Part shown: positions 1 to 9,261 of the stretch, one piece after another
How the letters are laid out: every line of letters begins with the position of its first letter
Position numbering within the stretch: position 1 is the stretch's first letter
Origin: a virus
Lineage: Duplodnaviria; Heunggongvirae; Uroviricota; Caudoviricetes
IMG/VR virus record: IMGVR_UViG_2657245500_000015
DNA length: 9,261 bases
Reading direction: 5' to 3' (one strand)
Program-made: the position numbers and the translations under genes
Notes under the pieces: model-generated
Database searches by the model: none
Seen by the model: the letters and a program-made list of their open reading frames with translations, nothing else
What the model was told of the DNA's origin: nothing

Positions 1-74
1 TTATCGTGAGAGTAATTCATCGGCACGTTAAATCATATCAGGCGTAATACCACAACCCTTAAGTTAGCGCTTAT

Positions 75-95
75 GGGGGGAAGTCCCCCTTTTTA
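75..95 (+). terminator. Putative rho-independent terminator
   Basis: G/C stem 76-80 (GGGGG) pairs with 85-89 (CCCCC), loop AAGT, followed by TTTTT at 90-94. Stop codons in all three + frames within 1-45 are consistent with a + strand gene ending just left of or at the window start. Confidence 0.4.
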
Positions 96-435
96 ACGTC
101 ATTTTATGCAGGGAATGTGTAGTTCTACACAGATTCTATGCAGTATCGGTATAGTCCCTTTTTATTCTAACTTATTGAAATATATAAAGAATCTGCAAAG
201 CCTCTTTTCAGGGAGCTATGCAGGGTGTTAGTCGTCCCTCTCCAGACACTACATATAGTGCTATATACAGGGCTATATAACGATATATAGATGTTTGGTC
301 ACATGGTGTAACTATCAAGAAACTTAATAGTTTCCTATGTGAAAGTTATTTCTGAGGGTGGGTAAGTGCTCAGGAGATTTCATGAGGATAATTCTTATCC
401 GAATCATCACGTAGAACACGCTTAAGCACAGATAC

Positions 436-458
436 AAAAAAGCCCCCATGAAGGAGGC
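436..458 (-). terminator. Putative rho-independent terminator of the recombinase gene
   Basis: On the minus strand the RNA reads GCCUCC-UUCAU-GGGGGC (6-bp stem with one G-U pair) followed by UUUUUU; it lies 27 nt downstream of the recombinase stop at 485. Confidence 0.55.
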
Positions 459-484
459 TATGAATCTATGCAGGTGATGAGAAA

Positions 485-1051
485 TTATTCAGCTTTAATA
501 CGCTGTACAGTTGACTTGGCAACGTTGAATTGAGCGGCTACTTTAGCGATTGAACTACCAGCAGCAAGAGCAGCTTTAATACCTTCTCTGTCAACCGCTT
601 TACCGTTACCCCTTCCAACTACACGACCAGCAGCTTTAGCAGCTTCATAACCTTCTCTTTGACGCTCAAGCATCATTTTACGTTCAGCTTCAGCCACTGC
701 TGAAAAGATTGTGAGAATCATCTTAGACGTGGGGTTATCGTCACCAGTTATCAGACCTTCTTTGTGAAAGTGAACCTTGATACCTTTCTGTGAAAGTTTA
801 TCCACCAGCGTTAATACATCCACGGTAGAGCGCCCTAAACGTGACAGGTCGTGTACATGGATAGTGTCACCTTCACGAACATAATCGAGCATAGCCTTTA
901 GTTGTGGACGGTCTGTATTCTTCCCAGATGCTTTATCAGTAAATACCTTATCCAGTACGACCCCTTCAAGTTGACGGTCTGTAATCTGCTGGATTGATGA
1001 AACTCGAACATAACCAATGTTAGCCATAATATACTCATTTGCCTTACTCAT
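485..1051 (-). CDS. Serine recombinase, resolvase/invertase family
   Basis: N-terminus MANIGYVRVSSIQQ matches the catalytic-serine motif of Hin/Gin/gamma-delta resolvase; also FTDKASG, DLSRLGRS, ILTIFSAVAEAER E-helix, and a C-terminal HTH (SSIAKVAAQFNVAKSTVQRI). The likely true start is the internal Met at 1027 (MANIGY...), since the ATG at 1051 has no SD. Confidence 0.9.
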   Translation of the reverse strand: MSKANEYIMANIGYVRVSSIQQITDRQLEGVVLDKVFTDKASGKNTDRPQLKAMLDYVREGDTIHVHDLSRLGRSTVDVLTLVDKLSQKGIKVHFHKEGLITGDDNPTSKMILTIFSAVAEAERKMMLERQREGYEAAKAAGRVVGRGNGKAVDREGIKAALAAGSSIAKVAAQFNVAKSTVQRIKAE

Positions 1052-1071
1052 TTGATGGATTGAGTATAACG

Positions 1072-1153
1072 TACCGATAAAGTGTTTTACAAGGCTAATC
1101 GGTATGGTTTTTACAGGGGGTTAGCTATACCTTTTTAGTATGCTATATCGGTA
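1072..1153. promoter_or_regulatory. Candidate recombinase binding (res/crossover-like) region upstream of the recombinase gene
   Basis: Inverted pair TACCGAT (1072-1078) and ATCGGTA (1098-1104), a further ATCGGTA at 1147-1153, and direct GTTTTACAAGG / GGTTTTTACAGG motifs. Its position just 5' of the recombinase gene is typical for res sites. Not validated. Confidence 0.25.
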
Positions 1154-1519
1154 TGCCTAAGAGATGGAGATGCCTTTACAGCAACTCACATAGAAAGTCA
1201 ATAGATATTTGGCTTTTTTGCAAAGGGGGTCACATAGCTGGTGTGACGGGTACTTAGCAGGTATAGACCTGTGATAGATATTTTCGAAGATTCGGGGAAG
1301 ATGAGATTCAAAGAGGGCTAGTCATTTTTTATAAAAATTTTCAGACTCTGAAAAGTTACTGTACAGATTTTATACAGATATCTTTAAAGTATCTGTAAAG
1401 ACTTTTAAGATAAGAGATAGATATCCCAGAAAGGATATCCGTTTAGAAAACCTGTTAAGTATCTCTTAAAAGAGAGTAAACCTTGTCAATAGTGATTGCA
1501 ATAAAAATTTTTATTTCTT

Positions 1520-2182
1520 ATGTCAATTGAGCATATTTTAATCGGGAAACATCATGGGGGTTCTGATTACTGGAGAACTCCATTTCTTATATTCCGCAAT
1601 TTGCACCGTGAGTTTAGTTTCAGTCTGGATGGTGCTGCAACTGAGCATGACACGCTGTTACCACGATTCACCAATGATATTCACAATCAGTCATGGGATG
1701 GTGAACGGGTGTTCTGTAACCCACCATACAGCGACACTAAAACATTCCTCCTAAAAGCCGCTGAAGCGGATTTAGCGGTATTCCTGATACCGTACCGACC
1801 CCACACCACATACTGGCTTAAGCACCTCTTCACAAACCCGCTTTGCCATGAAATCCGTATTCTTCATCGTGCAGTTAAATACCTTCCACCAGCAGGGCAT
1901 AACGGGCTTGCTATTAGGTCACCGTTTGCAAGTGCAATTGTCATCTTTAAAACTGAGCCACGCAGACATGAAATTACGCAGATGATTTGCTGTGCTGATA
2001 CATTGCTACCGTTAACCATCATTAACAGAGGAGGCTTAAGAGGAAGACCCACCATTTACCCACCTGAGACGCTCGACAGCTTCATAAAGCTATACAGGCA
2101 AGGAAAACCCATTAAGTGCATTGCAGATGCTCTCAGAATGCCTCTGAGCACGTCATACAGGATTGCGCAAAGGTTGAGCTAA
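1520..2182 (+). CDS. Dam-family DNA N6-adenine methyltransferase with C-terminal invertase-type HTH domain
   Basis: WRTP, FSLDGAATEHDTLLPRF, VFCNPPYSD and VFLIPYRP motifs are typical of phage (T1-type) Dam methyltransferases. The last ~55 aa (NRGGLRGRPT...LYRQGKPIKCIADALRMPLSTSYRIAQRL) match the GRP plus HTH C-terminal domain of Hin/Gin-type serine recombinases. No obvious SD before the ATG at 1520. Confidence 0.8.
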   Translation: MSIEHILIGKHHGGSDYWRTPFLIFRNLHREFSFSLDGAATEHDTLLPRFTNDIHNQSWDGERVFCNPPYSDTKTFLLKAAEADLAVFLIPYRPHTTYWLKHLFTNPLCHEIRILHRAVKYLPPAGHNGLAIRSPFASAIVIFKTEPRRHEITQMICCADTLLPLTIINRGGLRGRPTIYPPETLDSFIKLYRQGKPIKCIADALRMPLSTSYRIAQRLS

Positions 2183-2286
2183 AATTCTCATAAATATGGC
2201 CATTTACAAGACAGGTGATTTAGATATTAAGAAGTATCCCTGTGAACAATAAATGACCAATCAGTAATTATTCTGTGAAATAATTG

Positions 2287-2315
2287 TTGCAATCTATAAT
2301 CACACATGATATAGT
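2287..2315 (+). promoter_or_regulatory. Candidate sigma70 promoter (TTGCAA-N17-TATAGT) upstream of the replication gene
   Basis: TTGCAA at 2287-2292, 17-bp spacer, TATAGT at 2310-2315. Confidence 0.35.
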
Positions 2316-2548
2316 TTCATAGTGGGCTGATAAAAAAGTTCATGTCTTGAAGTGGTAACACTTGGGGAGGTGTCAGATGATTGACGTCAACAAGACCTCT
2401 CATTCAGGGTAATTACCTCAGCGTTTTAATCATCGTACTGTTTCAGGCATGGACTTCTTTATCAGTCCATCAATCCCCCAGATATTTTAATCACACAGGC
2501 TAATCGGTTTTATCCGGTTGGCCTTTTCACGTATGAGGTAATTTATGA

Positions 2549-3487
2549 ATGTCTAAATATAACCCAAATCAGTTTTATAAATTTGATGTGCGAATCTCTC
2601 AGCTTTCAGAAGAAATTAACGCAGCAGCAAGATTAATTTATATGGTCATGGTTCATAGCTGTGATTTCTATGAAGAGAAGTACAAAGCATATTCACCAAG
2701 TATTGACCATCTAGCTTATATGGCTGGTGTTTCAAAGAGAACGGCAATCAGAGCTATTGAGACACTTGAGAAACACGGTTTAATTCAGGTGCAAAAGAAT
2801 CAGGGTCGTCAAAGCACTTATCGTGTATTCACACTGGATGATAAGCCGGAATTACTTGTAAGACCTACATCACAGGAAGTTGCAGCCTCAGTAAGACAAA
2901 ATGACACCACTACCAGTGACAAAATGTCATCAGTACCAGTGACAAAATGTCATGGGGGTAGTGACAAAATGTCACCCGTGTTAGATAAGTTATTAGATAA
3001 AACATTAGATAATAATATTATAGATAAGAGTAAAGATACTGAACTTGATGTTGGTATCAATGAAGATGATTTTCTTTCTTTGGATGAATTAAATGATTTT
3101 CTCTCTATGAATGAATCTGACCTTGATAGTGAAGCTACTAAAGAGACCTCTAAAACATCTGACTTAGAGGAAGATAAAATCTCTGATGTGAATGAAGTTA
3201 GTGACCAGCAAGATACACCTTGCCGCCTCGAATCAACTGATGATGAATTACCGGATGTTGACCTTGATGATGAAGAAGACCCTGAAGAGGAATTGAAACG
3301 TGAACAGCGTAAAGCAGAAATTAAAGAAAGATTCAGAAAGGCAAAGCTAAAGAACAGGATTGATGAACTTGATGACTTTGATGATAGTGACGATGATTTT
3401 ACTTTTACACCAAAAAAGAAAACTCACACCGAGCCAAAGAAAGAAAAAGTTAAAGTCAGACGTGTTTATGCTGGAGGAATGTTTTAA
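2549..3487 (+). CDS. Replication initiator protein (N-terminal HTH DNA-binding domain, acidic C-terminal tail)
   Basis: N-terminal region (SIDHLAYMAGVSKRTAIRAIETLEKHGLI) resembles HTH-type phage/plasmid replication initiators. Four iterons and an AT-rich tract lie inside the coding sequence, as in lambda O/ori. SD GAGG at 2534-2537. The C-terminal third is highly acidic low-complexity sequence. Confidence 0.8.
   Translation: MSKYNPNQFYKFDVRISQLSEEINAAARLIYMVMVHSCDFYEEKYKAYSPSIDHLAYMAGVSKRTAIRAIETLEKHGLIQVQKNQGRQSTYRVFTLDDKPELLVRPTSQEVAASVRQNDTTTSDKMSSVPVTKCHGGSDKMSPVLDKLLDKTLDNNIIDKSKDTELDVGINEDDFLSLDELNDFLSMNESDLDSEATKETSKTSDLEEDKISDVNEVSDQQDTPCRLESTDDELPDVDLDDEEDPEEELKREQRKAEIKERFRKAKLKNRIDELDDFDDSDDDFTFTPKKKTHTEPKKEKVKVRRVYAGGMF
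2893..2975. repeat. Iteron array: four copies of the palindromic motif (a)GTGACAAAATGTCA(t) at ~23-bp spacing
   Basis: GACAAAATG cores at 2895-2903 (degenerate copy AGACAAAATGACA), 2918-2926, 2941-2949 and 2963-2971. Each full site has dyad symmetry (TGACA-AAA-TGTCA). The 23/23/22-bp period is about two helical turns. Confidence 0.7.
2981..3029. other. AT-rich tract with repeated TTAGATAA (putative DNA unwinding element of the origin)
   Basis: TTAGATAA at 2981-2988, 2993-3000 and 3005-3012 (12-bp period), and TAGATAAG at 3022-3029, immediately downstream of the iterons. Same order (iterons then AT-rich) as lambda ori. Confidence 0.5.
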
Positions 3488-3777
3488 TGAAAGAATATAA
3501 CGGTGAAAAACGATACAAAGATTATCTATTAAGGCGCTACAGCATTTCTCGTGAAGGTCATCTTCTGAAAGATACTCATGGGGAGGTTTACCGGATTCGA
3601 CCGAAGAAGGAAGGAAAGAATTATTTCTTTTTTGATGGTGTGACAGATTTAAAGATTGACGCTTTGAGGTTTGCAGTGATGTATCATTTTGATGTCTGGG
3701 ATTCAGTCCACCAGCTACGATTAAAAGACGGTGACCCCGGTAATCTGAAGGCCACCAATATCATCACAAAACGTTAG
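3487..3777 (+). CDS. Hypothetical small protein, NUMOD4/HNH_3-like (possibly degenerate HNH)
   Basis: The ATG overlaps the replication gene stop (TAATG coupling) and GGAGGA SD lies at 3471-3476. YSISREGHLL, ALRFAVMYHF and LRLKDGDPGNLKATN parallel the Y.VSN.GRV / HRLV / HIDGNK.NN.NL pattern of small HNH homing-endonuclease-like proteins, but the conserved His positions appear replaced. Confidence 0.6.
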   Translation: MKEYNGEKRYKDYLLRRYSISREGHLLKDTHGEVYRIRPKKEGKNYFFFDGVTDLKIDALRFAVMYHFDVWDSVHQLRLKDGDPGNLKATNIITKR

Positions 3778-3959
3778 TTTGTTTTACCATCATCAATCGT
3801 AATTGTGATTTCATATTTGAAAAGCTTAATGCTGAAATTGAATCGTGTACTTTTGGCGATAATCATTTTTAAAAGCTGATACACCAGAAGCACCAGAAAC
3901 ACAAAGCAACCTAAGCTTGCGAATCTGTGAGATTCAGCAATTGTTTCAAGAAAGCCCAT
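3774..3959 (-). CDS. Small hydrophobic (probable membrane) protein, 61 aa
   Basis: Minus-strand ORF with a predicted transmembrane stretch (LGCFVFLVLLVYQLL). SD-like AAGGGGA 5 nt upstream of the ATG, and a candidate minus-strand promoter at 4011-4038. Its 3' end overlaps the convergent ORF ending at 3777. Confidence 0.4.
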   Translation of the reverse strand: MGFLETIAESHRFASLGCFVFLVLLVYQLLKMIIAKSTRFNFSIKLFKYEITITIDDGKTN

Positions 3960-4010
3960 TAATTCCCCTTATTTATCAAAGGGAATGACCTGTATCAGCC
4001 CCTATAACCA

Positions 4011-4038
4011 TAATATCATGTAAATGAGATGTTGACAA
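4011..4038 (-). promoter_or_regulatory. Candidate minus-strand sigma70 promoter (TTGTCA-N16-TATTAT)
   Basis: The reverse complement of 4033-4038 is TTGTCA and of 4011-4016 is TATTAT, with a 16-bp spacer. It would drive the small hydrophobic ORF 3959->3774. Confidence 0.35.
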
Positions 4039-4060
4039 TATGTTAAATAAATGTTAAGAT
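4032..4060 (+). promoter_or_regulatory. Candidate sigma70 promoter (TTGACA-N17-TAAGAT) for the 4097-4812 operon
   Basis: TTGACA at 4032-4037, 17-bp spacer, TAAGAT at 4055-4060. Its -35 overlaps the -35 of the divergent minus-strand promoter. Confidence 0.4.
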
Positions 4061-4096
4061 TGTAGTATGAGTAAGAGATTTAAGGAGATTTTTACA

Positions 4097-4387
4097 ATGA
4101 CTCACACAGTTACGCGCCTTTTGCCAGAGGCATTTGAACGACTGGCAGCAATCAAAGCCAAATATCCCGATATGAAGCACACAGCGCTTGTTGCAGAGGT
4201 TTTAAAAGAGCCGGTAGACTTGACCCCTTTCGATAACGTTAAGGGCGTTGCAGAGGGTTCTAAGGCCATCAGAATCACAACGGGCCAACTGGAACTACTC
4301 AAAGCACAGTCCGCAGTAGCAGGTTGCTCAATGATTCAGGTCTTAAGCGCAAAGGTTCATCAATTAGCGGATAAGCTGGGGGTTTAA
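4097..4387 (+). CDS. Hypothetical DNA-binding protein, ribbon-helix-helix-like (possibly two tandem RHH motifs)
   Basis: The start is moved to the ATG at 4097 because of the AAGGAG SD at 4082-4087 (the ATG at 4067 sits on the promoter). TVTRLLPEAFERLAAIKAKY...HTALVAEVL and IRITTGQLELLKAQSAVAG...MIQVLSAKV each fit a beta-strand/helix/helix RHH pattern. Confidence 0.65.
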   Translation: MTHTVTRLLPEAFERLAAIKAKYPDMKHTALVAEVLKEPVDLTPFDNVKGVAEGSKAIRITTGQLELLKAQSAVAGCSMIQVLSAKVHQLADKLGV

Positions 4388-4812
4388 TGCTATGTACATT
4401 TGATTATCATGCGTTTTATCGACATAGAGGTCATCTTGTCCGTGAGAATAACGGAACATGGAAAGATTTAACTCGTAATGCTGAACCCTTCACACACCAG
4501 CAATTAAAATCCCGCTTCTCCAGATGGAAGAATGCACCAGCAGATACTGGTGATTTTGAGATTATCCATACCTTCGATTATGCCTCAGAAGATGACCTTC
4601 ACGATGCAATTAAGCTGATTGAAGACTTCAATACCTCAGAAAATGTGGATGGTGACAAATATAAATCCCGTGGTAACCGCTATAACCGTGATGATATCAC
4701 TCAGGCCATAAATGCTGGTCAATCTCAGCGATACATTACAGAAAAATATGGTATTTCACGGAGACAGTATTTCTACGTTAAATCATTGATTAATAAAGAC
4801 AATTCAAAATAA
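4387..4812 (+). CDS. Hypothetical protein with C-terminal helix-turn-helix
   Basis: The ATG overlaps the upstream stop (TAATG), indicating translational coupling. C-terminal ITQAINAGQSQRYITEKYGISRRQYFYV resembles resolvase/HTH_23-type HTH motifs. Confidence 0.65.
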   Translation: MLCTFDYHAFYRHRGHLVRENNGTWKDLTRNAEPFTHQQLKSRFSRWKNAPADTGDFEIIHTFDYASEDDLHDAIKLIEDFNTSENVDGDKYKSRGNRYNRDDITQAINAGQSQRYITEKYGISRRQYFYVKSLINKDNSK

Positions 4813-4971
4813 CCATCTCAGTAACGGTAGAATGCACTTTACAGGCAGAGTTGCACCTTAATTTGATAAATTACCTTACCAGCCAGTGCAACTCCCTCTG
4901 TAACCCGCATGGTTACTGGCCTCAGAATGGCTATTTTAAGAGGTCTGAGATGTGTTTTAGAGGAATTTAAA

Positions 4972-5295
4972 ATGAGCAATTACGAATTACAGATTTTCGT
5001 TGATAACGACACCGCTATGATGATTCAGGCTTTCAGTGATTCCGGTGTATCAATTGATTTTGACAGGCTGTTAAAGCTGATGGCTGATAATGCAGAAAAC
5101 ATCTCTGACTTTATTCAGTCGGTGGAGTTTAACGAGCCTCGAATGATGCTACCAATTACCGACTCAAACATGAAAAGATTGGTTATCGAGCAAACGAACA
5201 AACACAGTATTTCCCCAGAGCAATTTTTGAAAGGTGCTGTGACAATCCTGCACAGCGATAATATTCTGGTGACGGATTCTATGAGGGTTCACTAA
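4972..5295 (+). CDS. Hypothetical protein (107 aa)
   Basis: The start is placed at the ATG at 4972, preceded by GAGGA at 4959-4963; the longer ORF from 4909 has no SD. No family recognised. Confidence 0.6.
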   Translation: MSNYELQIFVDNDTAMMIQAFSDSGVSIDFDRLLKLMADNAENISDFIQSVEFNEPRMMLPITDSNMKRLVIEQTNKHSISPEQFLKGAVTILHSDNILVTDSMRVH

Positions 5296-5372
5296 TGGGA
5301 TTGATAATTGCTTGGACAGCTTTAGGTTTATTTGTTGGTTGCTGGGTGGGCAACACAGTAAATAAGAATTGA
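5295..5372 (+). CDS. Possible 25-aa hydrophobic peptide (MGLIIAWTALGLFVGCWVGNTVNKN)
   Basis: The ATG overlaps the stop of the upstream gene (TAATG at 5293-5297). The peptide is a single predicted transmembrane helix. Below the size cut-off of the ORF track. Confidence 0.3.
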   Translation: MGLIIAWTALGLFVGCWVGNTVNKN

Positions 5373-5396
5373 TGTTACCAATCTGTTAAAAAGCTG

Positions 5397-5425
5397 TTGA
5401 CAAATAACCTTAAGCATGGCATAAT
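5397..5425 (+). promoter_or_regulatory. Consensus-like sigma70 promoter (TTGACA-N17-CATAAT)
   Basis: TTGACA at 5397-5402, 17-bp spacer, CATAAT at 5420-5425; predicted transcription start near 5432. Confidence 0.5.
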
Positions 5426-5620
5426 TGTATATATGAGGATAGTCTTCTATCCGAAGTCTATAGGAAGAGCAATTTTTCCTAAAATCATATTTTCAATAAT
5501 CCGATGGATGGATATTCTGAGTTGGAAAGGTGCAATGCTTTTCGTCATGGCCTTTCAGTTTAGTCTGAGAGGTCATCTCAAAAAGTGCTTAATCATTCAT
5601 TATTGAACCCTTACAGCTTT

Positions 5621-5650
5621 GCCCTAACTCATGATTAGGGCGTTTTCTTT
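5621..5650 (+). terminator. Rho-independent terminator
   Basis: Stem GCCCTAA (5621-5627) pairs with TTAGGGC (5635-5641), 7-nt loop, followed by GTTTTCTTT. About 220 nt downstream of the 5397 promoter. Confidence 0.55.
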
Positions 5651-5720
5651 AAGAGTTTTGAAACAGAGCTTTTAAAGAAAGTTTTCCTGAAACTTCGTTA
5701 ACGTTATAAGCAAACCTTCA

Positions 5721-5755
5721 AAGCCCTTCACAGATTATGTTTAGGGCTTTTCTTA
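5721..5755 (+). terminator. Second terminator-like hairpin
   Basis: AAGCCCT (5721-5727) pairs with AGGGCTT (5743-5749), 15-nt loop, followed by TTCTT. Weaker than the first because of the large loop. Confidence 0.3.
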
Positions 5756-5851
5756 ATAGAGCATCTTTAATAAATCGTTAAGTCATCTTCTAAGTGTATT
5801 GGCGTTGAAGGTGCTCTATTAAGAAATAACCACACTTAGAGGAAAAAAATA

Positions 5852-6562
5852 ATGACAAACGATATTTACATTAATGGCAAAGTGATTGATAGCTTCGGTG
5901 ACTGGTCACCACAGACTGAACATCCAGCTATCGCTATTCAGCGCAAAGAGCACGATGCGAGAATTGCACTTGAGCAATCGCTAAAGATGACACCAAAGGA
6001 AATTACCTTTGTGGCTCCTGAACCTCAAGAGATGCCCGATATTGGCAAAACTGAAGCATTATTTAATCTTGAGCGCGAATATTACCCACAGTTAAAAGAA
6101 CAGCGCCTTAGATTAGATGACGCTTACAGCAAAGTTACCTTGATGCAATCAGCTATTGAGCCGTCAGAATTTGAGATTCAGGATGAATTGTCACAGAAAC
6201 CATTTGTCTATTACCAATACGAAGACAATGATGGTTTTGGTACTTTTCCAGAAAACATCACAGGCGTGATTAGTAGTCTTCCTGATGGATATCGAATTGT
6301 GAAGATGGTTAAAGCTTCAAGAGGTGCTGGTCAGTTTATTTACATGACCAATAAGAGCGATGAAGAACTCCGTGAAATTGCCAGACAGAACATCTTGGCA
6401 TCACGTAACAAGCAACTTGAAAATGTTAAGTTGTATCTCTCAAGAGAGCTTCAGGCTATGAAAGAGCTTGTTAGTGAATATGAGTCGCAGAAGAAGATTG
6501 CTATGCAAGCCGATATTGAGCAGCTTACGAAGATTTCTCAGAAGTATAGCAAAGCGATTTAA
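5852..6562 (+). CDS. Hypothetical protein (236 aa, C-terminal predicted coiled coil)
   Basis: Long ORF with SD AGAGG at 5838-5842 and ATG at 5852. No family recognised. Confidence 0.75.
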   Translation: MTNDIYINGKVIDSFGDWSPQTEHPAIAIQRKEHDARIALEQSLKMTPKEITFVAPEPQEMPDIGKTEALFNLEREYYPQLKEQRLRLDDAYSKVTLMQSAIEPSEFEIQDELSQKPFVYYQYEDNDGFGTFPENITGVISSLPDGYRIVKMVKASRGAGQFIYMTNKSDEELREIARQNILASRNKQLENVKLYLSRELQAMKELVSEYESQKKIAMQADIEQLTKISQKYSKAI

Positions 6563-6578
6563 TTTAAGTGAGGTGAGA

Positions 6579-6794
6579 ATGATTGATTTGCAACAGCGTT
6601 ATGAAACTATTAAGTCGGCTTGTGAAAACTTAAAGTTACAAACCAAGCCAGCCTTAAGAATTAAAACCAAACATCAAATTATCACCTCACACAAACCAAA
6701 AACACGCAAGATTCCAAAGTGGTGTATTGACCGTATTCCTTCTGATGCTCAAATCATAGGTGAAACGGAATTACATTATCTTGTCCGACATTAA
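6579..6794 (+). CDS. Hypothetical small basic protein (71 aa)
   Basis: ATG at 6579 preceded by GAGGTGA at 6568-6574. The longer ORF from 6468 overlaps the preceding gene and lacks an SD. Confidence 0.5.
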   Translation: MIDLQQRYETIKSACENLKLQTKPALRIKTKHQIITSHKPKTRKIPKWCIDRIPSDAQIIGETELHYLVRH

Positions 6795-6821
6795 AAAAGA
6801 ATTGGTTGGGTAAAAATCAAC

Positions 6822-6863
6822 GGGAGAGATTATCGAGTGATATCGGTAGTTTCTCCCTTTTTT
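6822..6863 (+). terminator. Putative terminator hairpin with T-run
   Basis: GGGAGA (6822-6827) pairs with TCTCCC (6852-6857), followed by TTTTTT at 6858-6863. The loop is long (24 nt), so stability is uncertain. Confidence 0.4.
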
Positions 6864-6870
6864 GTATGTG

Positions 6871-6913
6871 TGCTACGTGAAATCTTCTGAACAGATATAC
6901 CCACCAAAAATTA
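6871..6913. repeat. Direct repeat copy R1 (TGCTACGTGA-AAT-CTTCTGAACAGATA...AAAAATTA)
   Basis: About 43 bp, near-identical to 9110-9152: blocks TGCTACGTGA (10/10), CTTCTGAACAGATA (14/14) and CAAAAATTA match, with a short variable linker. R1 is additionally bounded by the 7-bp inverted repeat GCTACGT (6872-6878) / ACGTAGC (6920-6926). Confidence 0.7.
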
Positions 6914-6954
6914 TTTTTTACGTAGCTCACGCTTAAAGAGGTGAAAAAATATGA

Positions 6955-9021
6955 ATGGCACAATTTAAAGTTGATGATTTTCTGATTGAGCTAGGTTTTA
7001 ACTCTCAGAGGGTTTTAAAAGGTCTGGAAAAAGCCGAGAAACAAACGATGCAGGTAGCATCACGAATTGAGAAGCGATTGAATAAAGCTTTTAAAGTTAA
7101 CCCTACGCCTTTAAATGATTCTCTCAAGGTCATGGAAAGAAATGTCGATAAAACTGTTTCCAAGATTGAGCAGCGTCTTAAAAACACTAAAGCGTTTAAG
7201 ATTAAAACGGAAATTGAGGATACTTTAAAGCCACTTAGACAACCGAGACAGCCACGAATTAGCGGAAGCAGAGCAATTACAGCAGCGCATAGCGTGAATA
7301 TGAGCAAGCTTCGTGACTTTAATCCTATGCTTGAGAAGTATTTTAAAAGCCAGTATTACAGCTTAAGCAGTAAATCCAAGACACTTGGAAACGAAGCTTT
7401 TAATCGTGAGTTAGCAAAATTAAATCAATCTCTTCGTGAAACACTTTCTAAGTTTAACAAGACCACCAGCAAAAATAATCACAGTGAAAATGCTTCGAAT
7501 GGTCTGGATGTATTAGCTACGAGTGCAATCAAAGCAGGTACAGCCATTTATAGTTTTCAGACAGCCTTAGAAGCTTACAGGCGGATTATGGAGGTTGGTC
7601 TGAAAAAAGAAGCATCACAACGAGCGGCACAATTCGTTTTAGGTGATGAAGGTGCTAAACGAGCTACAGAATTTGTTAAGAATCTTGCTGATAGTAGTGG
7701 TGTAGACCAGATTGAAACATTAAGCAGTTTTGCTAAGTTTTCCGCTGGTGCTGGTGATATGAATGCAGACCAGAAAGAATCCTTATTTTCTAATGTGATT
7801 GGTACATCCAGATTAATGGGGCTAAGCACCGATGAAATTAACGGGATTTTAAAAGCTTTCGAGCAGATGGCATCTAAAGGAAAGATTCAGGCTGAAGAGC
7901 TACGCGGTCAATTAGGTGACAGAATGGCAGGTGCTTTTCAGTTATTTGCCAGAAGTCTTGGGATGACTACGGAAGAATTAGACAAGGCTATGAAAGACGG
8001 TAAGGTTCTTTCTAAAGATGTTCTCCCTAAAGTATCCGCTGAAATGGGAAAGATGATTGATAAAGCGGGAGGATGGGAAAAGATTATTAACTCTACTCAG
8101 ACGCAGTTAGGCCGCTTAAGTAATTCATGGAATAATAATTTGGCCTTAATGTTCGATGGTTCACAGGAAGGTTTAACAGACTTTACAAGGTCACTGACTA
8201 ATTTACTTAATTCACTGGGTGGTCAATCTAAAAATCTTGGTGAACATTTTGGCGACTTGATGAAAAGCATGTCAAACGGTATTGATGATTTAACCACGAT
8301 TAGCTACCGAGTGCAGGGATTCTTTGACAGAGTGACCCTTGCTTACAGAGAATTAAATGACACTCAAAAAGCTGTAGCTGATGGTATCGCAAATGGCCTG
8401 TTAAGTGCATTAAAGGGACTTGCTGGTATTGTCGCTGTAAGGTCTGGTATTGGTGCTGTAGGTGGTATCTGGAACTTAATTAGGGCTATTTCCACGCTTG
8501 GGAATGTAGCAAATACAGCAGCAGGAAGAATTAATTCACGTTCTGGTGGTGTTGAAAGTGGAAAAAGTAGGCTATCTGTAGCTGATGCAATTACCAGAGT
8601 AATGATTGTCGGTATGACAACTGATGTGATTAATGCCATTGTCAAACCGTTCTATGAACGTCAGATGAGTAAGTCAGATAATCCGATTGATAAAGTTGTA
8701 AGGTCAAAGGTGGAACCCACAGACCAGGCATTAACTGGTGACATGAACTCTTTAGCCGCTGTTTTATGGGCTATGGTTCATGGCAAATCAAAAGATGTTC
8801 CACAGTTTTCACCTGAAGCATTAAATAATCTAAAAGGTCGAGTGGAAACATTCACACAAGATTTAAAGGTTATCAAGCCGTCAGTAAATATTCAGCCTCA
8901 GACAATCAATATCACAACTCAGACGGTACTTGATGGAAAGGTTATTGATGAAAGAACCACATCGCATATTAATCGTATGCAGGAAGATACCTTGATTAGC
9001 TCAGCTTACCCAGAGGAATAA
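6955..9021 (+). CDS. Tape-measure-domain protein (phage tail tape measure-like), 688 aa
   Basis: The segment FEQMASKGKIQAEELRGQLGDRMAGAFQLFARSLGMTTEELDKAMKDGKVLSKDVLPKVSAEMGK matches the conserved tape-measure domain pattern (SKGK.Q.EEL..QL..R.PGA.Q..A...G....EL...M..GK.L...VLP). A Gly-rich hydrophobic segment (GLAGIVAVRSGIGAVGGIWNLI) is typical of tape-measure proteins. SD AAAGAGGTGA at 6936-6945. Confidence 0.85.
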   Translation: MAQFKVDDFLIELGFNSQRVLKGLEKAEKQTMQVASRIEKRLNKAFKVNPTPLNDSLKVMERNVDKTVSKIEQRLKNTKAFKIKTEIEDTLKPLRQPRQPRISGSRAITAAHSVNMSKLRDFNPMLEKYFKSQYYSLSSKSKTLGNEAFNRELAKLNQSLRETLSKFNKTTSKNNHSENASNGLDVLATSAIKAGTAIYSFQTALEAYRRIMEVGLKKEASQRAAQFVLGDEGAKRATEFVKNLADSSGVDQIETLSSFAKFSAGAGDMNADQKESLFSNVIGTSRLMGLSTDEINGILKAFEQMASKGKIQAEELRGQLGDRMAGAFQLFARSLGMTTEELDKAMKDGKVLSKDVLPKVSAEMGKMIDKAGGWEKIINSTQTQLGRLSNSWNNNLALMFDGSQEGLTDFTRSLTNLLNSLGGQSKNLGEHFGDLMKSMSNGIDDLTTISYRVQGFFDRVTLAYRELNDTQKAVADGIANGLLSALKGLAGIVAVRSGIGAVGGIWNLIRAISTLGNVANTAAGRINSRSGGVESGKSRLSVADAITRVMIVGMTTDVINAIVKPFYERQMSKSDNPIDKVVRSKVEPTDQALTGDMNSLAAVLWAMVHGKSKDVPQFSPEALNNLKGRVETFTQDLKVIKPSVNIQPQTINITTQTVLDGKVIDERTTSHINRMQEDTLISSAYPEE

Positions 9022-9109
9022 ACAATGTTAGAGCTACTAATATTTATTGCCACACATGGCAATCTATTAATCTTTATCTAGTATGACGATTCAACTATGA
9101 ATAGTCGAA

Positions 9110-9152
9110 TGCTACGTGATTTCTTCTGAACAGATACCAACATCAAAAATTA
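9110..9152. repeat. Direct repeat copy R2
   Basis: Near-identical to R1 (6871-6913); lies 89 bp downstream of the tape-measure gene stop. It lacks the right-hand ACGTAGC inverted-repeat arm seen at R1. Confidence 0.7.
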
Positions 9153-9261
9153 GATGAACCGCCCCGGGTTTCCTGGAGAGTGTTTTATCTGTGAACTCAG
9201 GCTGCCAGATCATTGTTTCCGATGGAAGCATAATAAGCTTTTTCTGCTTCTGCCGGAGGAG
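9112..9261 (-). CDS. Possible 3' end of a minus-strand gene continuing beyond the window (partial)
   Basis: The minus-strand frame is open for 49 codons from the window edge to a TAG at 9112-9114 (...LIFDVGICSEEIT*). The last ~110 bp are about 50% GC by manual count, against roughly 40% elsewhere. A + strand frame from the ATG at 9154 is also open, so strand and reality are uncertain. Confidence 0.25.
   Translation of the reverse strand, partial: LLRQKQKKLIMLPSETMIWQPEFTDKTLSRKPGAVHLIFDVGICSEEIT

What the first reader, a model, noticed from the sequence alone, without database searches (positions are those of the whole stretch)
6955..9021. Tape-measure-domain protein in an atypical gene context
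The tape-measure-like gene follows replication and regulatory genes after only two unknown ORFs, with no recognisable major tail, chaperone, terminase or capsid gene between. It is short for a tape-measure protein and sits alone between direct repeats. It may be a structural gene of a reduced or satellite-type element, or a tape-measure-derived protein with another role.
Basis: partly seen in the sequence, partly recalled or inferred. Interest (0 to 1): 0.4.

Follow-up and report, generated by a model that had tools for sequence, protein, structure and literature searches.

The report
Tape-measure gene of a putative phage satellite
The tape-measure gene is real and belongs to a small, apparently undescribed, roughly 11-kb mobile island of E. 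coli that carries two tail-core genes (tape measure and tube initiator) copied from virulent Felix O1-like phages, so it is most likely a parasite ("satellite") of those phages that builds hybrid tails.

Summary
Window 6955-9021 encodes an intact 688-aa tape measure protein (TMP) with no tube, sheath, chaperone, capsid or terminase gene nearby, and it lies between two copies of a 43-nt repeat.

- **Window ends.** Both ends are insertion-sequence ends (1-77 and 9155-9261), so the window is an IS-bounded piece of a larger element.
- **Intact relatives.** These are about 11-12 kb chromosomal islands. TMP-homologous DNA occurs in 244 of 5426 complete E. coli genomes.
- **Conserved module.** The order is p107, p236, p71, TMP, tube initiator, then a large serine recombinase. 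Upstream lies a lambda-O-type replication module.
- **Link to Felix O1-like phages (Ounavirinae).** The TMP aligns full length with theirs at 27-32% identity. The tube initiator is 60-76% identical to the gene that follows the TMP in those phages. A 63-nt non-coding segment upstream of the island's dam gene matches the phage ORF40-41 promoter region.
- **Upstream ORFs.** The 236-aa protein shows no tube or chaperone fold; the 71-aa protein was not modelled and matched no family.

Best reading (about 0.6): a PLE-like satellite of these virulent phages that assembles chimeric, slightly shorter tails. I found no paper describing this family. Nothing here shows induction, packaging or transfer.

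The parts
1..77 (.). Foreign DNA: terminal 77 nt of an IS421-type (IS4-family) insertion sequence, with its terminal inverted repeat at 53-77. Not part of the element.
   Evidence: 100% identical to plasmid locus L023 4670-4746, with 53-77 repeated inverted at 3421-3397. Other plasmid hits name IS421 at this place.
78..9154 (+). IS-bounded remnant of an 11-12 kb integrative element. In this contig it lacks the tube-initiator gene and the large serine recombinase gene.
   Evidence: Collinear with chromosomal islands L001, L002 and L006. Window 75-281 aligns just downstream of the recombinase stop codon in L006.
485..1051 (-). Small serine recombinase (resolvase/invertase type), 188 aa.
   Evidence: Pfam Resolvase E 4.5e-37 and HTH_7. 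PHROG 125 'DNA invertase' E 1.2e-58.
1397..1459 (+). Non-coding segment shared with Felix O1-like phages, about 60-120 nt upstream of dam. Probably a phage-type regulatory site.
   Evidence: 29 of 30 nt identical to SUSP2. It hits 253 phage records whose listed names are almost all Felix O1-type phages (one Staphylococcus-labelled record), at 81-86% identity, mostly once per record, in DNA that is unannotated in nearly all listed rows. In Felix O1 it maps to the ORF40-41 intergenic region. The core motif starts about 118 nt upstream of dam in the relatives checked and occurs in 20 of 99 related loci.
1520..2182 (+). Dam-like N6-adenine DNA methyltransferase with a C-terminal helix-turn-helix, 220 aa.
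   Evidence: Pfam Dam E 3.4e-15 and HTH_7. PHROG 111. PADLOC 'orphan methyltransferase'.
2549..3487 (+). Replication initiator of the lambda O / DnaD-like HTH type, 312 aa, with an acidic C-terminal half.
   Evidence: Pfam HTH_36. PHROGs 'replication initiation protein' and 'replication initiation O-like', E about 1e-9 to 1e-10.
2893..3030 (.). Putative origin inside the initiator gene: about four 23-nt-spaced iterons (palindromic core GTGACAAAATGTCA) followed by an A+T-rich stretch.
   Evidence: Tandem Repeats Finder: period 23, 3.5 copies, score 97. The layout copies lambda ori inside gene O (established knowledge).
3487..3777 (+). p96, unknown function.
   Evidence: No significant family match (one sub-threshold Pfam hit, DUF7271, E 0.015). 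Conserved in relatives that share this replication module.
3774..3959 (-). p61m, a 61-aa protein with a hydrophobic stretch (read directly from the sequence), encoded on the opposite strand.
   Evidence: 98-100% identical in six relatives whose neighbouring genes are only 83-95% identical. No family match in Pfam or PHROGs.
4067..4387 (+). p106 (annotated as 96 aa in relatives), unknown function.
4387..4812 (+). p141, unknown function.
   Evidence: No family match. Conserved in relatives.
4972..5295 (+). p107, the first gene of the conserved late module. It is the most conserved protein of the family.
   Evidence: Mean column identity 89% across diverged elements. The AlphaFold2 model is poor (pLDDT 52) but shows a repeated strand-helix-helix pattern.
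5852..6562 (+). p236, an element-specific protein with a long coiled-coil hairpin plus a small alpha/beta domain. Not a tube or chaperone fold.
   Evidence: Only 24 representatives among 1.84 billion proteins clustered at 50% identity. AlphaFold2 pLDDT 80. No Foldseek match in PDB or BFVD. Always sits two genes upstream of the TMP.
6579..6794 (+). p71, a small lysine- and arginine-rich protein with its own ribosome-binding site (GAGGTGA), always immediately upstream of the TMP.
   Evidence: Conserved at 39-96% identity across the family. No family match.
6822..6857 (+). Terminator-like hairpin (15-bp stem followed by a T run) that separates the TMP gene from the upstream genes.
   Evidence: Conserved in L001, L002 and L006.
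6871..6936 (+). Repeat copy 1: a 55-nt dyad element (GCTACGTGA, 37 nt, TTACGTAGC; 6872-6926) plus a nearly invariant box TCACGCTTAA. It serves as leader or promoter of the TMP gene.
   Evidence: Present in 61 of 99 related loci with a constant 37-nt spacer (38 nt in one), directly upstream of the TMP or the tube-initiator gene wherever gene positions were mapped. Absent from phage SUSP2.
6955..9021 (+). Tape measure protein, 688 aa, a diverged full-length homologue of the Felix O1-type phage TMP.
9110..9154 (+). Repeat copy 2: the same dyad element that precedes the tube-initiator gene in relatives. Here it is cut inside the dyad by the IS.
9155..9261 (.). Foreign DNA: the end of an IS3-family (IS629-like) insertion sequence.
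   Evidence: 100% identical to L023 1501-1607. Thousands of IS hits. In the sister contig L104 an rve transposase follows.

Best explanation
The TMP gene belongs to a family of about 11-12 kb integrative elements of Escherichia, Shigella and Salmonella. These elements behave like V. cholerae PLEs, that is, as satellites of virulent myophages, here Felix O1-like phages (subfamily Ounavirinae).

**Proposed cycle**
1. *Inferred.* The element sits in the chromosome, integrated by a large serine recombinase.
2. *Inferred.* Infection by a Felix O1-like phage switches on the dam/initiator operon through a cis segment copied from the phage's ORF40-41 promoter region. The element then replicates from the iteron origin inside its initiator gene.
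3. *Shown.* The element encodes its own TMP and tube initiator, each behind the same dyad leader.
4. *Inferred.* These two proteins replace the phage's gp17 and gp18 equivalents inside phage-made baseplate, tube and sheath. The result is a chimeric tail roughly 6-9 nm shorter.
5. *Inferred.* The phage's terminase and capsid proteins package the element, and it moves to new cells. Felix O1 has no recognisable small terminase, so the element may need only a cis packaging site.

In the copy in this window, IS insertions separate the TMP from its partner gene and from the recombinase. This copy may be disabled.
For: **It is a defined mobile element, not a prophage tail module.**
- Intact relatives lie between yciI and tonB, inside yecE, and between lafU and dinB. 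A more distant relative lies beside mdoGH and msyB.
- Different integration sites go with different recombinases.
- No capsid, terminase, tube, sheath or conjugation gene was found.
- TMP-homologous DNA occurs in 244 of 5426 complete E. coli genomes, always on the chromosome. A copy in E. albertii is 96% identical. Close p236 homologues occur in Salmonella and Shigella.

**The two tail genes come from Felix O1-like phages.**
- The TMP aligns over 100% of its length at 28-29% identity with those phages' TMPs and matches Bas63 gp017 at E 1.7e-74.
- The next gene in relatives is 60-76% identical to the phage gene that directly follows the TMP. It matches the Bas63 tube initiator gp018 at E 5e-108 (role from PMC12609058).

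**The TMP conservation pattern fits a protein that must dock into phage parts.** Against the phage TMPs, the first ~55 residues are 45-60% identical, the core around residues 288-350 is 51-55%, and the last ~20 residues are 50%. The rest is 8-30%.

**All element TMPs are shorter than the phage TMPs:** 679-716 aa against 742-746 aa.

**Non-coding DNA is shared with the phages.** Window 1397-1459 hits 253 phage records, almost all Felix O1-type by name. In Felix O1 it maps to the ORF40-41 divergent promoter region (PMC3185647).

**Base composition matches.** The window's G+C runs mostly 35-45%. Felix O1 is 39%.

**A replication module is present:** a lambda-O-like initiator and iterons.

**An experimental precedent exists.** PLEs carry a TMP, a tail assembly chaperone and a baseplate hub protein that are 20%, 20% and 41% identical to their ICP1 counterparts. 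They build chimeric tails about 10 nm shorter, and deleting the PLE tmp lowers transduction by 96-99.9% (PMC12987554).

**The size ratio is similar.** The element is about 11.5 kb and the phage about 87 kb. A PLE is about 18 kb and ICP1 about 126 kb.
Against: - Nothing in the sequence shows induction, excision, packaging or transfer.
- No circular or terminally overlapping contig was found among 80 metagenome loci. The 11-12 kb contigs inspected (17 of the 80 loci) have the same gene order. That pattern fits assembly breaks at junctions as well as anything else.
- No capsid-size redirection protein, packaging signal or tail assembly chaperone was identified. p236 matched no known fold.
- The IMG/VR hits are 20-55 kb 'viral' contigs, larger than the element, so they give no evidence that the element alone is packaged.
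- The phage-like 63-nt segment occurs only in the elements that carry the dam module, 20 of 99 loci.
- The copy in this window is IS-disrupted.
Confidence: 0.6

Rival explanations
1. Defence island that uses structural decoys. The element-encoded TMP and tube initiator, possibly with p71 or p236, enter or block the phage's baseplate and tube initiation complex. This poisons Felix O1-like tail assembly and protects the bacterial population. The element itself is not packaged. It spreads by generalized transduction or recombination.
For: - The tube initiator is 60-76% identical to the phage protein, so it can plausibly bind phage partners, whereas the TMP is highly diverged.
- Tail-assembly-targeting defences are known, for example Rta of PLE11, which acts on the ICP1 TMP (PMC12987554).
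- No packaging or capsid-remodelling gene was recognised.
Against: - A decoy would not need a full-length TMP with preserved N-terminus, core and C-terminus, kept intact across alleles only 35-85% identical.
- A decoy would not need its own replication initiator and origin.
- No PADLOC defence model matches apart from an orphan methyltransferase.
- In PLE, interference and chimeric-tail building coexist. This rival is therefore partly compatible with the best explanation rather than exclusive of it.
Confidence: 0.2
2. A decaying remnant. The TMP and tube-initiator genes are leftovers of a tail module picked up once by an integrative or replicative element, or left from a defective prophage. 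They have no present function.
For: - The copy in the window is flanked and truncated by IS elements.
- In E. albertii (L007) no full-length ORF the size of the tube initiator follows the TMP.
- Many E. coli hits cover only part of the TMP gene.
Against: - The TMP ORF is intact (679-716 aa) in diverged relatives, with the gene order p107, p236, p71, TMP, tube initiator conserved.
- A dedicated, conserved dyad leader precedes both genes.
- The element family is found at several integration sites and in several species.
- Felix O1-like phages are virulent, and no integrase was noticed in the SUSP2 annotation. They therefore should not leave prophage remnants.
- The partial hits reflect mosaic alleles, not truncated genes. 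They are annotated as complete TMP genes.
Confidence: 0.07
3. Ordinary prophage tail module whose remaining genes simply lie outside the window.
For: The window ends in IS sequence on both sides, so the neighbouring genes of this particular copy cannot be seen.
Against: In complete genomes the element is bounded by host genes within about 11-12 kb. After the TMP it holds only the tube initiator and the recombinase. No other virion gene is found in any relative examined.
Confidence: 0.03

Closest known systems
[quoted passage not shown]
   Same: - Both are small chromosomal islands, and both have a replication initiator and no capsid or terminase genes. This family uses a large serine recombinase. 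PLE's integrase type was not checked here; from my own knowledge it is also a large serine recombinase.
- Both have their own TMP that is strongly diverged from the helper's (about 28% here, 20% in PLE).
- Both have a better-conserved baseplate-hub-side protein (60-76% here, 41% in PLE).
- In both, the satellite TMP is shorter than the helper's.
- In both, the (putative) helper is a large virulent myophage about 7-8 times the size of the element.
   Different: - No sequence relationship to PLE proteins was tested or seen.
- The host is Escherichia, Shigella or Salmonella, and the presumed helper is a Felix O1-like phage.
- The element is smaller (about 11.5 kb against about 18 kb).
- The second tail gene is the Dit-like tube initiator rather than BhuB.
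- No tail assembly chaperone was recognised.
- A dam-like methyltransferase and a lambda-O-type origin are present.
- There are no experimental data at all.
Tail module of Felixounavirus and Suspvirus (Bas63 gp17 TMP and gp18 tube initiator; PDB 9ndy; PMC12609058)
   Same: - The two genes are in the same order.
- The TMP is homologous over its full length.
- The tube initiator is 60-76% identical.
- The TMP N-terminus, core and C-terminal tip are conserved.
   Different: - In the phage the two genes abut and follow sheath, tube and two chaperone genes. In the element they stand alone, each behind its own dyad leader.
- In the element they are preceded by unrelated genes (p107, p236, p71).
- The element TMP is 26-67 residues shorter and only 27-32% identical.
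EPIPs, satellites of Mycolicibacterium aichiense that carry a TMP (preprint, PMC12822802)
   Same: A satellite that carries a TMP and a serine integrase. A role of the TMP in changing tail length has been proposed.
   Different: - EPIPs also encode a small terminase, head-tail adaptors, a scaffold and a capsid protein.
- Their host is an actinobacterium and their helper is a temperate phage.
- Their tails are longer, not shorter.
P4-like satellites, PICIs and cf-PICIs of Enterobacteria
   Same: Small integrative elements of E. coli that depend on helper phages. Some cf-PICIs have putative tmp genes (Extended Data Fig. 10 of PMC12987554).
   Different: From my own knowledge, those families use tyrosine integrases, primase-type replicases (Pri-Rep or alpha), AlpA-type regulators, and small-terminase or capsid genes, and their helpers are temperate phages. 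None of those hallmark genes was detected here.

Membership tests
Phage tail tape measure protein (Pfam TMP_3 / TIGR02675) | Significant match to the family models above their curated cut-offs | tested here: met
   TMP_3 scores 74.8 bits against a cut-off of 41. TIGR02675 scores 60.6 bits against 21.35. PHROG 4036 E 3.8e-93.
Phage tail tape measure protein (Pfam TMP_3 / TIGR02675) | Full-length homology to a TMP seen in a solved virion structure | tested here: met
   Bas63 gp017 (9ndy_F), E 1.7e-74, with the best stretch covering residues 199-688. tblastn covers 100% of the query against Felix O1-type TMPs.
Phage tail tape measure protein (Pfam TMP_3 / TIGR02675) | Actually sets tail length and lies inside the tail tube | not testable with these tools
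   Needs virion proteomics and electron microscopy.
Ordinary prophage or phage tail module | TMP preceded by tube (and sheath) genes and by a frameshifted chaperone pair | tested here: not met
   No such family is found upstream. p236 matched no known fold, chaperone or tube folds included. p71 has its own ribosome-binding site and start codon (sequence).
Ordinary prophage or phage tail module | Followed by hub, spike, wedge and fibre genes, and accompanied by capsid and terminase genes | tested here: not met
   In intact relatives only the tube initiator follows, then the recombinase and host genes.
PLE-like satellite with chimeric tails | Small integrative island with a large serine recombinase | tested here: met
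   Met in relatives: Resolvase, Recombinase and Zn_ribbon_recom domains in proteins of 506-514 aa, with host genes on both sides. The gene is not present in this window because the contig is cut by an IS.
PLE-like satellite with chimeric tails | Own replication initiator and origin | tested here: met
   Met by homology and anatomy only: O-like initiator, iterons and an A+T-rich stretch inside the gene.
PLE-like satellite with chimeric tails | Satellite TMP that is a diverged homologue of the helper's TMP | tested here: met
   27-32% identity to SUSP2 and Felix O1 TMPs, which are 81% identical to each other.
PLE-like satellite with chimeric tails | Satellite copy of a baseplate-hub component | tested here: met
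   Met in relatives: a Dit-like tube initiator, 60-76% identical to the phage protein, matching 9ndy_A at E 5e-108. In the window it is separated or lost at the IS junction near 9155.
PLE-like satellite with chimeric tails | Satellite tail assembly chaperone | tested here: inconclusive
   No sequence or fold match for p236. The p107 model is too poor to search. p71 was not modelled.
PLE-like satellite with chimeric tails | Induced by infection with the helper, packaged in helper capsids, and transduced | not testable with these tools
   Only indirect hints exist: a shared phage regulatory segment, and no circular contigs were seen.
PLE-like satellite with chimeric tails | Sequence homology to V. 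cholerae PLE genes | not tested
   No PLE sequences were at hand. No named family links the two.
PICI / cf-PICI / P4-like satellites | Tyrosine integrase, AlpA-type regulator, primase-replicase, and small-terminase or capsid genes (features listed from my own knowledge) | tested here: not met
   None was detected by Pfam, PHROGs or NCBIfam in the window or in the relatives' extra genes.

The most novel reading that the evidence does not exclude
This is the first satellite family of virulent Felix O1-like coliphages and Salmonella phages, an enterobacterial counterpart of V. cholerae PLE. It swaps in its own tape measure and tube initiator to build private tails, probably interferes with the helper, and is carried by about 4-5% of sequenced E. 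coli. That would give a tractable E. coli model for satellites of lytic phages. It would also reveal a hidden host factor that affects Felix O1-type phages, which several of the retrieved papers propose for biocontrol.
Probability: 0.5. Interest if true: 0.8.

Novelty: new variant of a known kind. Interest (0 to 1): 0.68.

Why it matters
- **Rarity.** A December 2025 commentary calls PLE a 'notable exception' among satellites because its helper is lytic (PMC12772148). Satellite-encoded tape measure proteins were first demonstrated only in 2025-2026 (PMC12987554).
- **A testable model.** A common E. coli, Shigella and Salmonella island with the same logic, but aimed at Felix O1-like phages, would make this biology testable in the best genetic model, using available phages such as Bas63, SUSP2 and Felix O1.
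- **Generality.** It would show that chimeric-tail piracy is general rather than a Vibrio peculiarity.
- **Practical use.** Felix O1-type phages are proposed for biocontrol in several of the papers retrieved. A resident island that hijacks or blocks their tails could change how well they work.
- **Annotation.** Thousands of database proteins of this island are currently labelled 'transposase' or 'hypothetical'. The island is also called 'viral' in IMG/VR.

Tried and rejected
1. **Tube or chaperone fold for the 236-aa protein.** The AlphaFold2 model had pLDDT 80. Foldseek against PDB and BFVD gave nothing below E 0.046. A profile search of PDB sequences found only coiled-coil noise.
2. **Structure of p107.** Only near-identical sequences could be submitted, and the model was poor (pLDDT 52). 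I did not run a fold search on it.
3. **Homology of the other element ORFs to a Felix O1-like genome.** tblastn against the whole SUSP2 genome hit only the TMP and the tube initiator.
4. **The 43-nt repeat as a copy of a phage late promoter.** It has no counterpart in SUSP2.
5. **Circular or episomal forms in metagenomes.** No terminal overlaps were found, and the near-element-length contigs inspected share one gene order.
6. **Known defence systems.** PADLOC found none.
7. **Known RNA families.** Rfam found none at E 0.1 or better.
8. **The dyad element as an RNA hairpin.** It folds as a long stem, but the z-score is only -1.8. The question stays undecided.
9. **Literature.** Five full-text searches, including one on RefSeq protein accessions, found no description of this family. 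Subscription journals are not covered, so prior description cannot be excluded.
10. **NCBI's name 'transposase' for p236.** No HMM supports it.
Full report
**1. The observation**

Window 6955-9021 (+) is an intact 688-codon ORF.
- It matches Pfam TMP_3 (E 9.5e-21, above the curated cut-off) and TIGR02675.
- It matches PHROG 4036 'tail length tape measure protein' (E 3.8e-93).
- It matches the tape measure protein gp017 of the solved Bas63 virion, PDB 9ndy_F (E 1.7e-74).

The other ORFs of the window are as follows:

| Coordinates | Product |
|---|---|
| 485-1051 (-) | small serine recombinase |
| 1520-2182 | Dam-like methyltransferase fused to a helix-turn-helix |
| 2549-3487 | lambda-O-like replication initiator |
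| various | seven ORFs with no family match |

No tube, sheath, chaperone, capsid or terminase gene is present. The 43-nt direct repeat at 6871-6913 and 9110-9152 is real.

**2. What the window is**

Both ends are foreign DNA.
- Bases 1-77 are 100% identical to the end of an IS421-type element.
- Bases 9155-9261 are 100% identical to the end of an IS3-family (IS629-like) element.
- All 13 public contigs that encode exactly this TMP are 10 kb or shorter. The longest shows an rve transposase immediately to the right.

The window is therefore almost certainly a draft-assembly contig that breaks at IS repeats. It contains a piece (78-9154) of something larger.

**3. The whole element**

Megablast against 5426 complete E. 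coli genomes finds collinear relatives, all chromosomal. The best-matching places are 88-95% identical. TMP-homologous DNA occurs in 244 genomes.

In three annotated examples the TMP is followed by a 256-aa 'phage baseplate protein', and a 506-514-aa large serine recombinase lies at one end of the element. The whole unit is about 11-12 kb and is bounded by host genes:
- yciI and tonB;
- a split yecE;
- lafU and dinB.

A more distant member lies next to mdoGH and msyB. Different sites go with unrelated recombinase genes. In GB089 the recombinase lies at the opposite end, which is what a different attP position on a circular form would produce.

A scan of species-representative genomes found one more copy, in E. 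albertii. Close homologues of the element-specific proteins come from E. coli, Shigella and Salmonella. Eighty metagenome loci, including contigs labelled as human gut, carry the family.

Across all of these, the early region is modular. It holds either dam, the O-like initiator, p96, p61m, p106 and p141, or an unrelated pair of 185-aa and 92-aa proteins. The late region is constant: p107, p236, p71, TMP (679-716 aa), tube initiator (253-269 aa), and recombinase on the opposite strand.

**4. Origin of the two tail genes**

*The TMP.* tblastn against 50,697 phage records shows that it aligns end to end (100% coverage, 28-29% identity) with the TMPs of Felix O1-like myophages, subfamily Ounavirinae. 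No phage record reaches 60% identity.

*The next gene.* The downstream 256-aa protein is 60-76% identical to a protein of the same phages. In SUSP2 and Felix O1 that gene directly follows the TMP. The Bas63 cryo-EM study identifies it as gp18, the tube initiator of the baseplate hub (PMC12609058). The match to PDB 9ndy_A is E 5e-108, and Pfam calls it Dit_like.

*Nothing else is shared.* No other element ORF hits the SUSP2 genome.

*Rates of divergence.*

| Comparison | TMP identity | Tube initiator identity |
|---|---|---|
| Phage vs phage (SUSP2 vs Felix O1) | 81% | 86% |
| Element vs element | 35-85% | 58-91% |
| Element vs phage | 27-32% | 60-76% |

The element TMPs are thus a separate, fast-evolving clade, while the tube initiator stays close to the phage protein.

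*Where the TMP is conserved.* Similarity to the phage TMPs is concentrated at three places: the first ~55 residues (45-60%), a core around residues 288-350 (51-55%, with about 85% DNA identity over 95 nt), and the last ~20 residues (50%). Elsewhere it is 8-30%. These are the parts expected to contact other tail components; the Bas63 study locates 'TMP tip helices' in the hub.

*Length.* Every element TMP is 26-67 residues shorter than the phage TMPs.

**5. Non-coding links and regulatory anatomy**

*A shared phage segment.* Window 1397-1459, upstream of dam, is 29 of 30 nt identical over its first 30 nt, and about 84-86% identical over 63 nt, to Felix O1-like phages.
- It hits 253 phage records. 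Their names are almost all Felix O1-type; one record is labelled Staphylococcus.
- It occurs mostly once per record (256 places in 253 records), in DNA that is unannotated in nearly all listed rows.
- In Felix O1 it lies in the ORF40-41 intergenic region.
- The Felix O1 genome paper describes that region as a divergent promoter region. Several flanking genes peak at 25 min after infection (PMC3185647).
- In the family, the core of this segment starts about 118 nt upstream of dam in the relatives checked. It is found in 20 of 99 loci.

*The origin.* The initiator gene contains about four 23-nt-spaced iterons followed by an A+T-rich stretch. This is the lambda ori layout.

- One copy follows a strong terminator-like hairpin and precedes the TMP. 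The other precedes the tube initiator.
- The dyad is found in 61 of 99 related loci with constant spacing. It lies directly upstream of one or both of these genes wherever gene positions were mapped.
- It is absent from SUSP2.
- In the phage the two genes abut. In the element each has its own copy of this control element.
- Whether it acts as a promoter with an operator or as an RNA stem is undecided.
- In the window the IS sits inside the second copy, about 40 nt upstream of where the tube-initiator gene would start.

**6. The upstream ORFs**

- **p236.** It belongs to a very small family, with 24 representatives among 1.84 billion clustered proteins. It models well (pLDDT 80) as a long coiled-coil hairpin plus a small alpha/beta domain. 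It matches nothing in PDB or BFVD, so a tube or chaperone fold is not supported.
- **p71.** It is small and rich in lysine and arginine, has its own ribosome-binding site, and matches no family.
- **p107.** It is the most conserved protein of the family, but it could not be modelled reliably.

Their functions remain open. By position and conservation they work with the TMP and the tube initiator.

**7. Mechanism**

The closest experimentally understood system is V. cholerae PLE.
- PLEs encode a TMP, a tail assembly chaperone and a baseplate hub protein that are 20%, 20% and 41% identical to their ICP1 counterparts.
- PLE virions contain the PLE proteins instead of the phage ones.
- Their tails are about 10 nm shorter.
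- Deleting the PLE tmp lowers transduction by 96-99.9% (PMC12987554).

The present family has the same logic. It is a small island with a large serine recombinase, its own initiator and origin, no head or packaging genes, a strongly diverged full-length TMP, and a better-conserved hub-side partner. Its presumed helper is a virulent myophage about 7-8 times its size.

I therefore propose that it is a satellite of Felix O1-like phages that builds chimeric tails roughly 6-9 nm shorter. That figure is an inference from 26-67 fewer residues at about 1.5 Å per residue, scaled by the PLE measurement. Felix O1 has no recognisable small terminase, so a satellite may need only a cis packaging site.

What is shown: the anatomy, the homologies, the shared non-coding DNA and the distribution. 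What is inferred: induction, replication, chimeric assembly, packaging and transfer.

I rate this reading at about 0.6. The rivals are:

| Rival | Confidence |
|---|---|
| Defence island acting through structural decoys (partly compatible with the best reading) | about 0.2 |
| Functionless remnant | about 0.07 |
| Ordinary tail module | about 0.03 |

**8. Novelty**

Five full-text searches found no description of this family. A December 2025 commentary on satellite families discusses only P4, PICIs, cf-PICIs, PLE and the new jumbo-phage islands, and it calls PLE a notable exception because its helper is lytic. A December 2025 preprint states that TMPs are otherwise unknown in satellites apart from PLE11 and its own EPIPs.

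The category 'satellite with a partial tail module' is therefore known. This family, its hosts, its presumed helper and its TMP-plus-tube-initiator pair appear to be new. The literature tools do not cover subscription journals, so prior description cannot be excluded.

**9. Caveat for this particular window**

This copy is bracketed by IS elements. Its tube-initiator leader is interrupted, and its recombinase is not on the contig. It may be an immobilised or partly inactivated copy, even if the family is active.

Noticed in passing
window 1397-1459: A 63-nt non-coding segment upstream of dam is 81-86% identical to a site in 253 phage records, almost all Felix O1-type by name (29 of 30 nt identical to SUSP2). 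In Felix O1 it lies in the ORF40-41 divergent promoter region. In the relatives checked, the core motif starts about 118 nt upstream of dam.
   Followed up: yes
window 2893-3030: About four 23-nt-spaced iterons (GTGACAAAATGTCA) followed by an A+T-rich stretch lie inside the initiator gene. This is the lambda ori-in-gene-O arrangement.
   Followed up: partly
window 3774-3959 (-): A 61-aa ORF with a hydrophobic stretch, on the opposite strand, is 98-100% identical in six relatives whose neighbouring genes are only 83-95% identical. It is a candidate toxin, exclusion or interference factor.
   Followed up: partly
window 5397-5425 and 5620-5642: The best sigma-70-like promoter of the window (TTGACA, 17 nt, CATAAT, with an extended TG) is followed about 200 nt later by a terminator-like hairpin, in the gap between p107 and p236. 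This could be a small RNA or a leader. The -35 region (5388-5405) is 17 of 18 nt identical to a stretch of the same SUSP2 intergenic region (80617-80634). There is no Rfam match.
   Followed up: partly
window 5295-5372 (+): A 25-codon hydrophobic micro-ORF (MGLIIAWTALGLFVGCWVGNTVNKN) starts in the TAATG overlap with the p107 stop codon.
   Followed up: no
window 5852-6562: NCBI records name most members of the p236 family 'transposase'. No Pfam, NCBIfam or PHROG model and no fold match supports that name.
   Followed up: yes
window 1-77 and 9155-9261: Both window ends are IS ends: IS421-type on the left and IS3-family (IS629-like) on the right. Every public contig with this exact TMP is 10 kb or shorter, so the window is a repeat-bounded draft contig.
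   Followed up: yes
related loci L008, L012-L019, L026-L102: The family is strongly mosaic. It has two unrelated replication modules and several unrelated large serine recombinases. TMP alleles are only 35-85% identical yet sit next to nearly identical p236, p71 or p107 genes. In E. coli genomes many hits cover only the first 330-630 nt or only the last 1780 nt of the TMP gene.
   Followed up: partly
window 1520-2182: The Dam-like methyltransferase carries a C-terminal resolvase-type helix-turn-helix (residues 175-218), an unusual fusion.
   Followed up: no
L010-L019 (IMG/VR): IMG/VR lists regions holding this island as viral genomes of 20-55 kb, much larger than the island. Two of the twelve come from metagenomes. 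In IMG/VR the island is counted as 'viral'.
   Followed up: partly
L007 1759-2800 (E. albertii NBRC 107761): Downstream of the TMP there are only 104-aa and 118-aa ORFs instead of a roughly 256-aa tube initiator. That gene may be disrupted in this genome.
   Followed up: no
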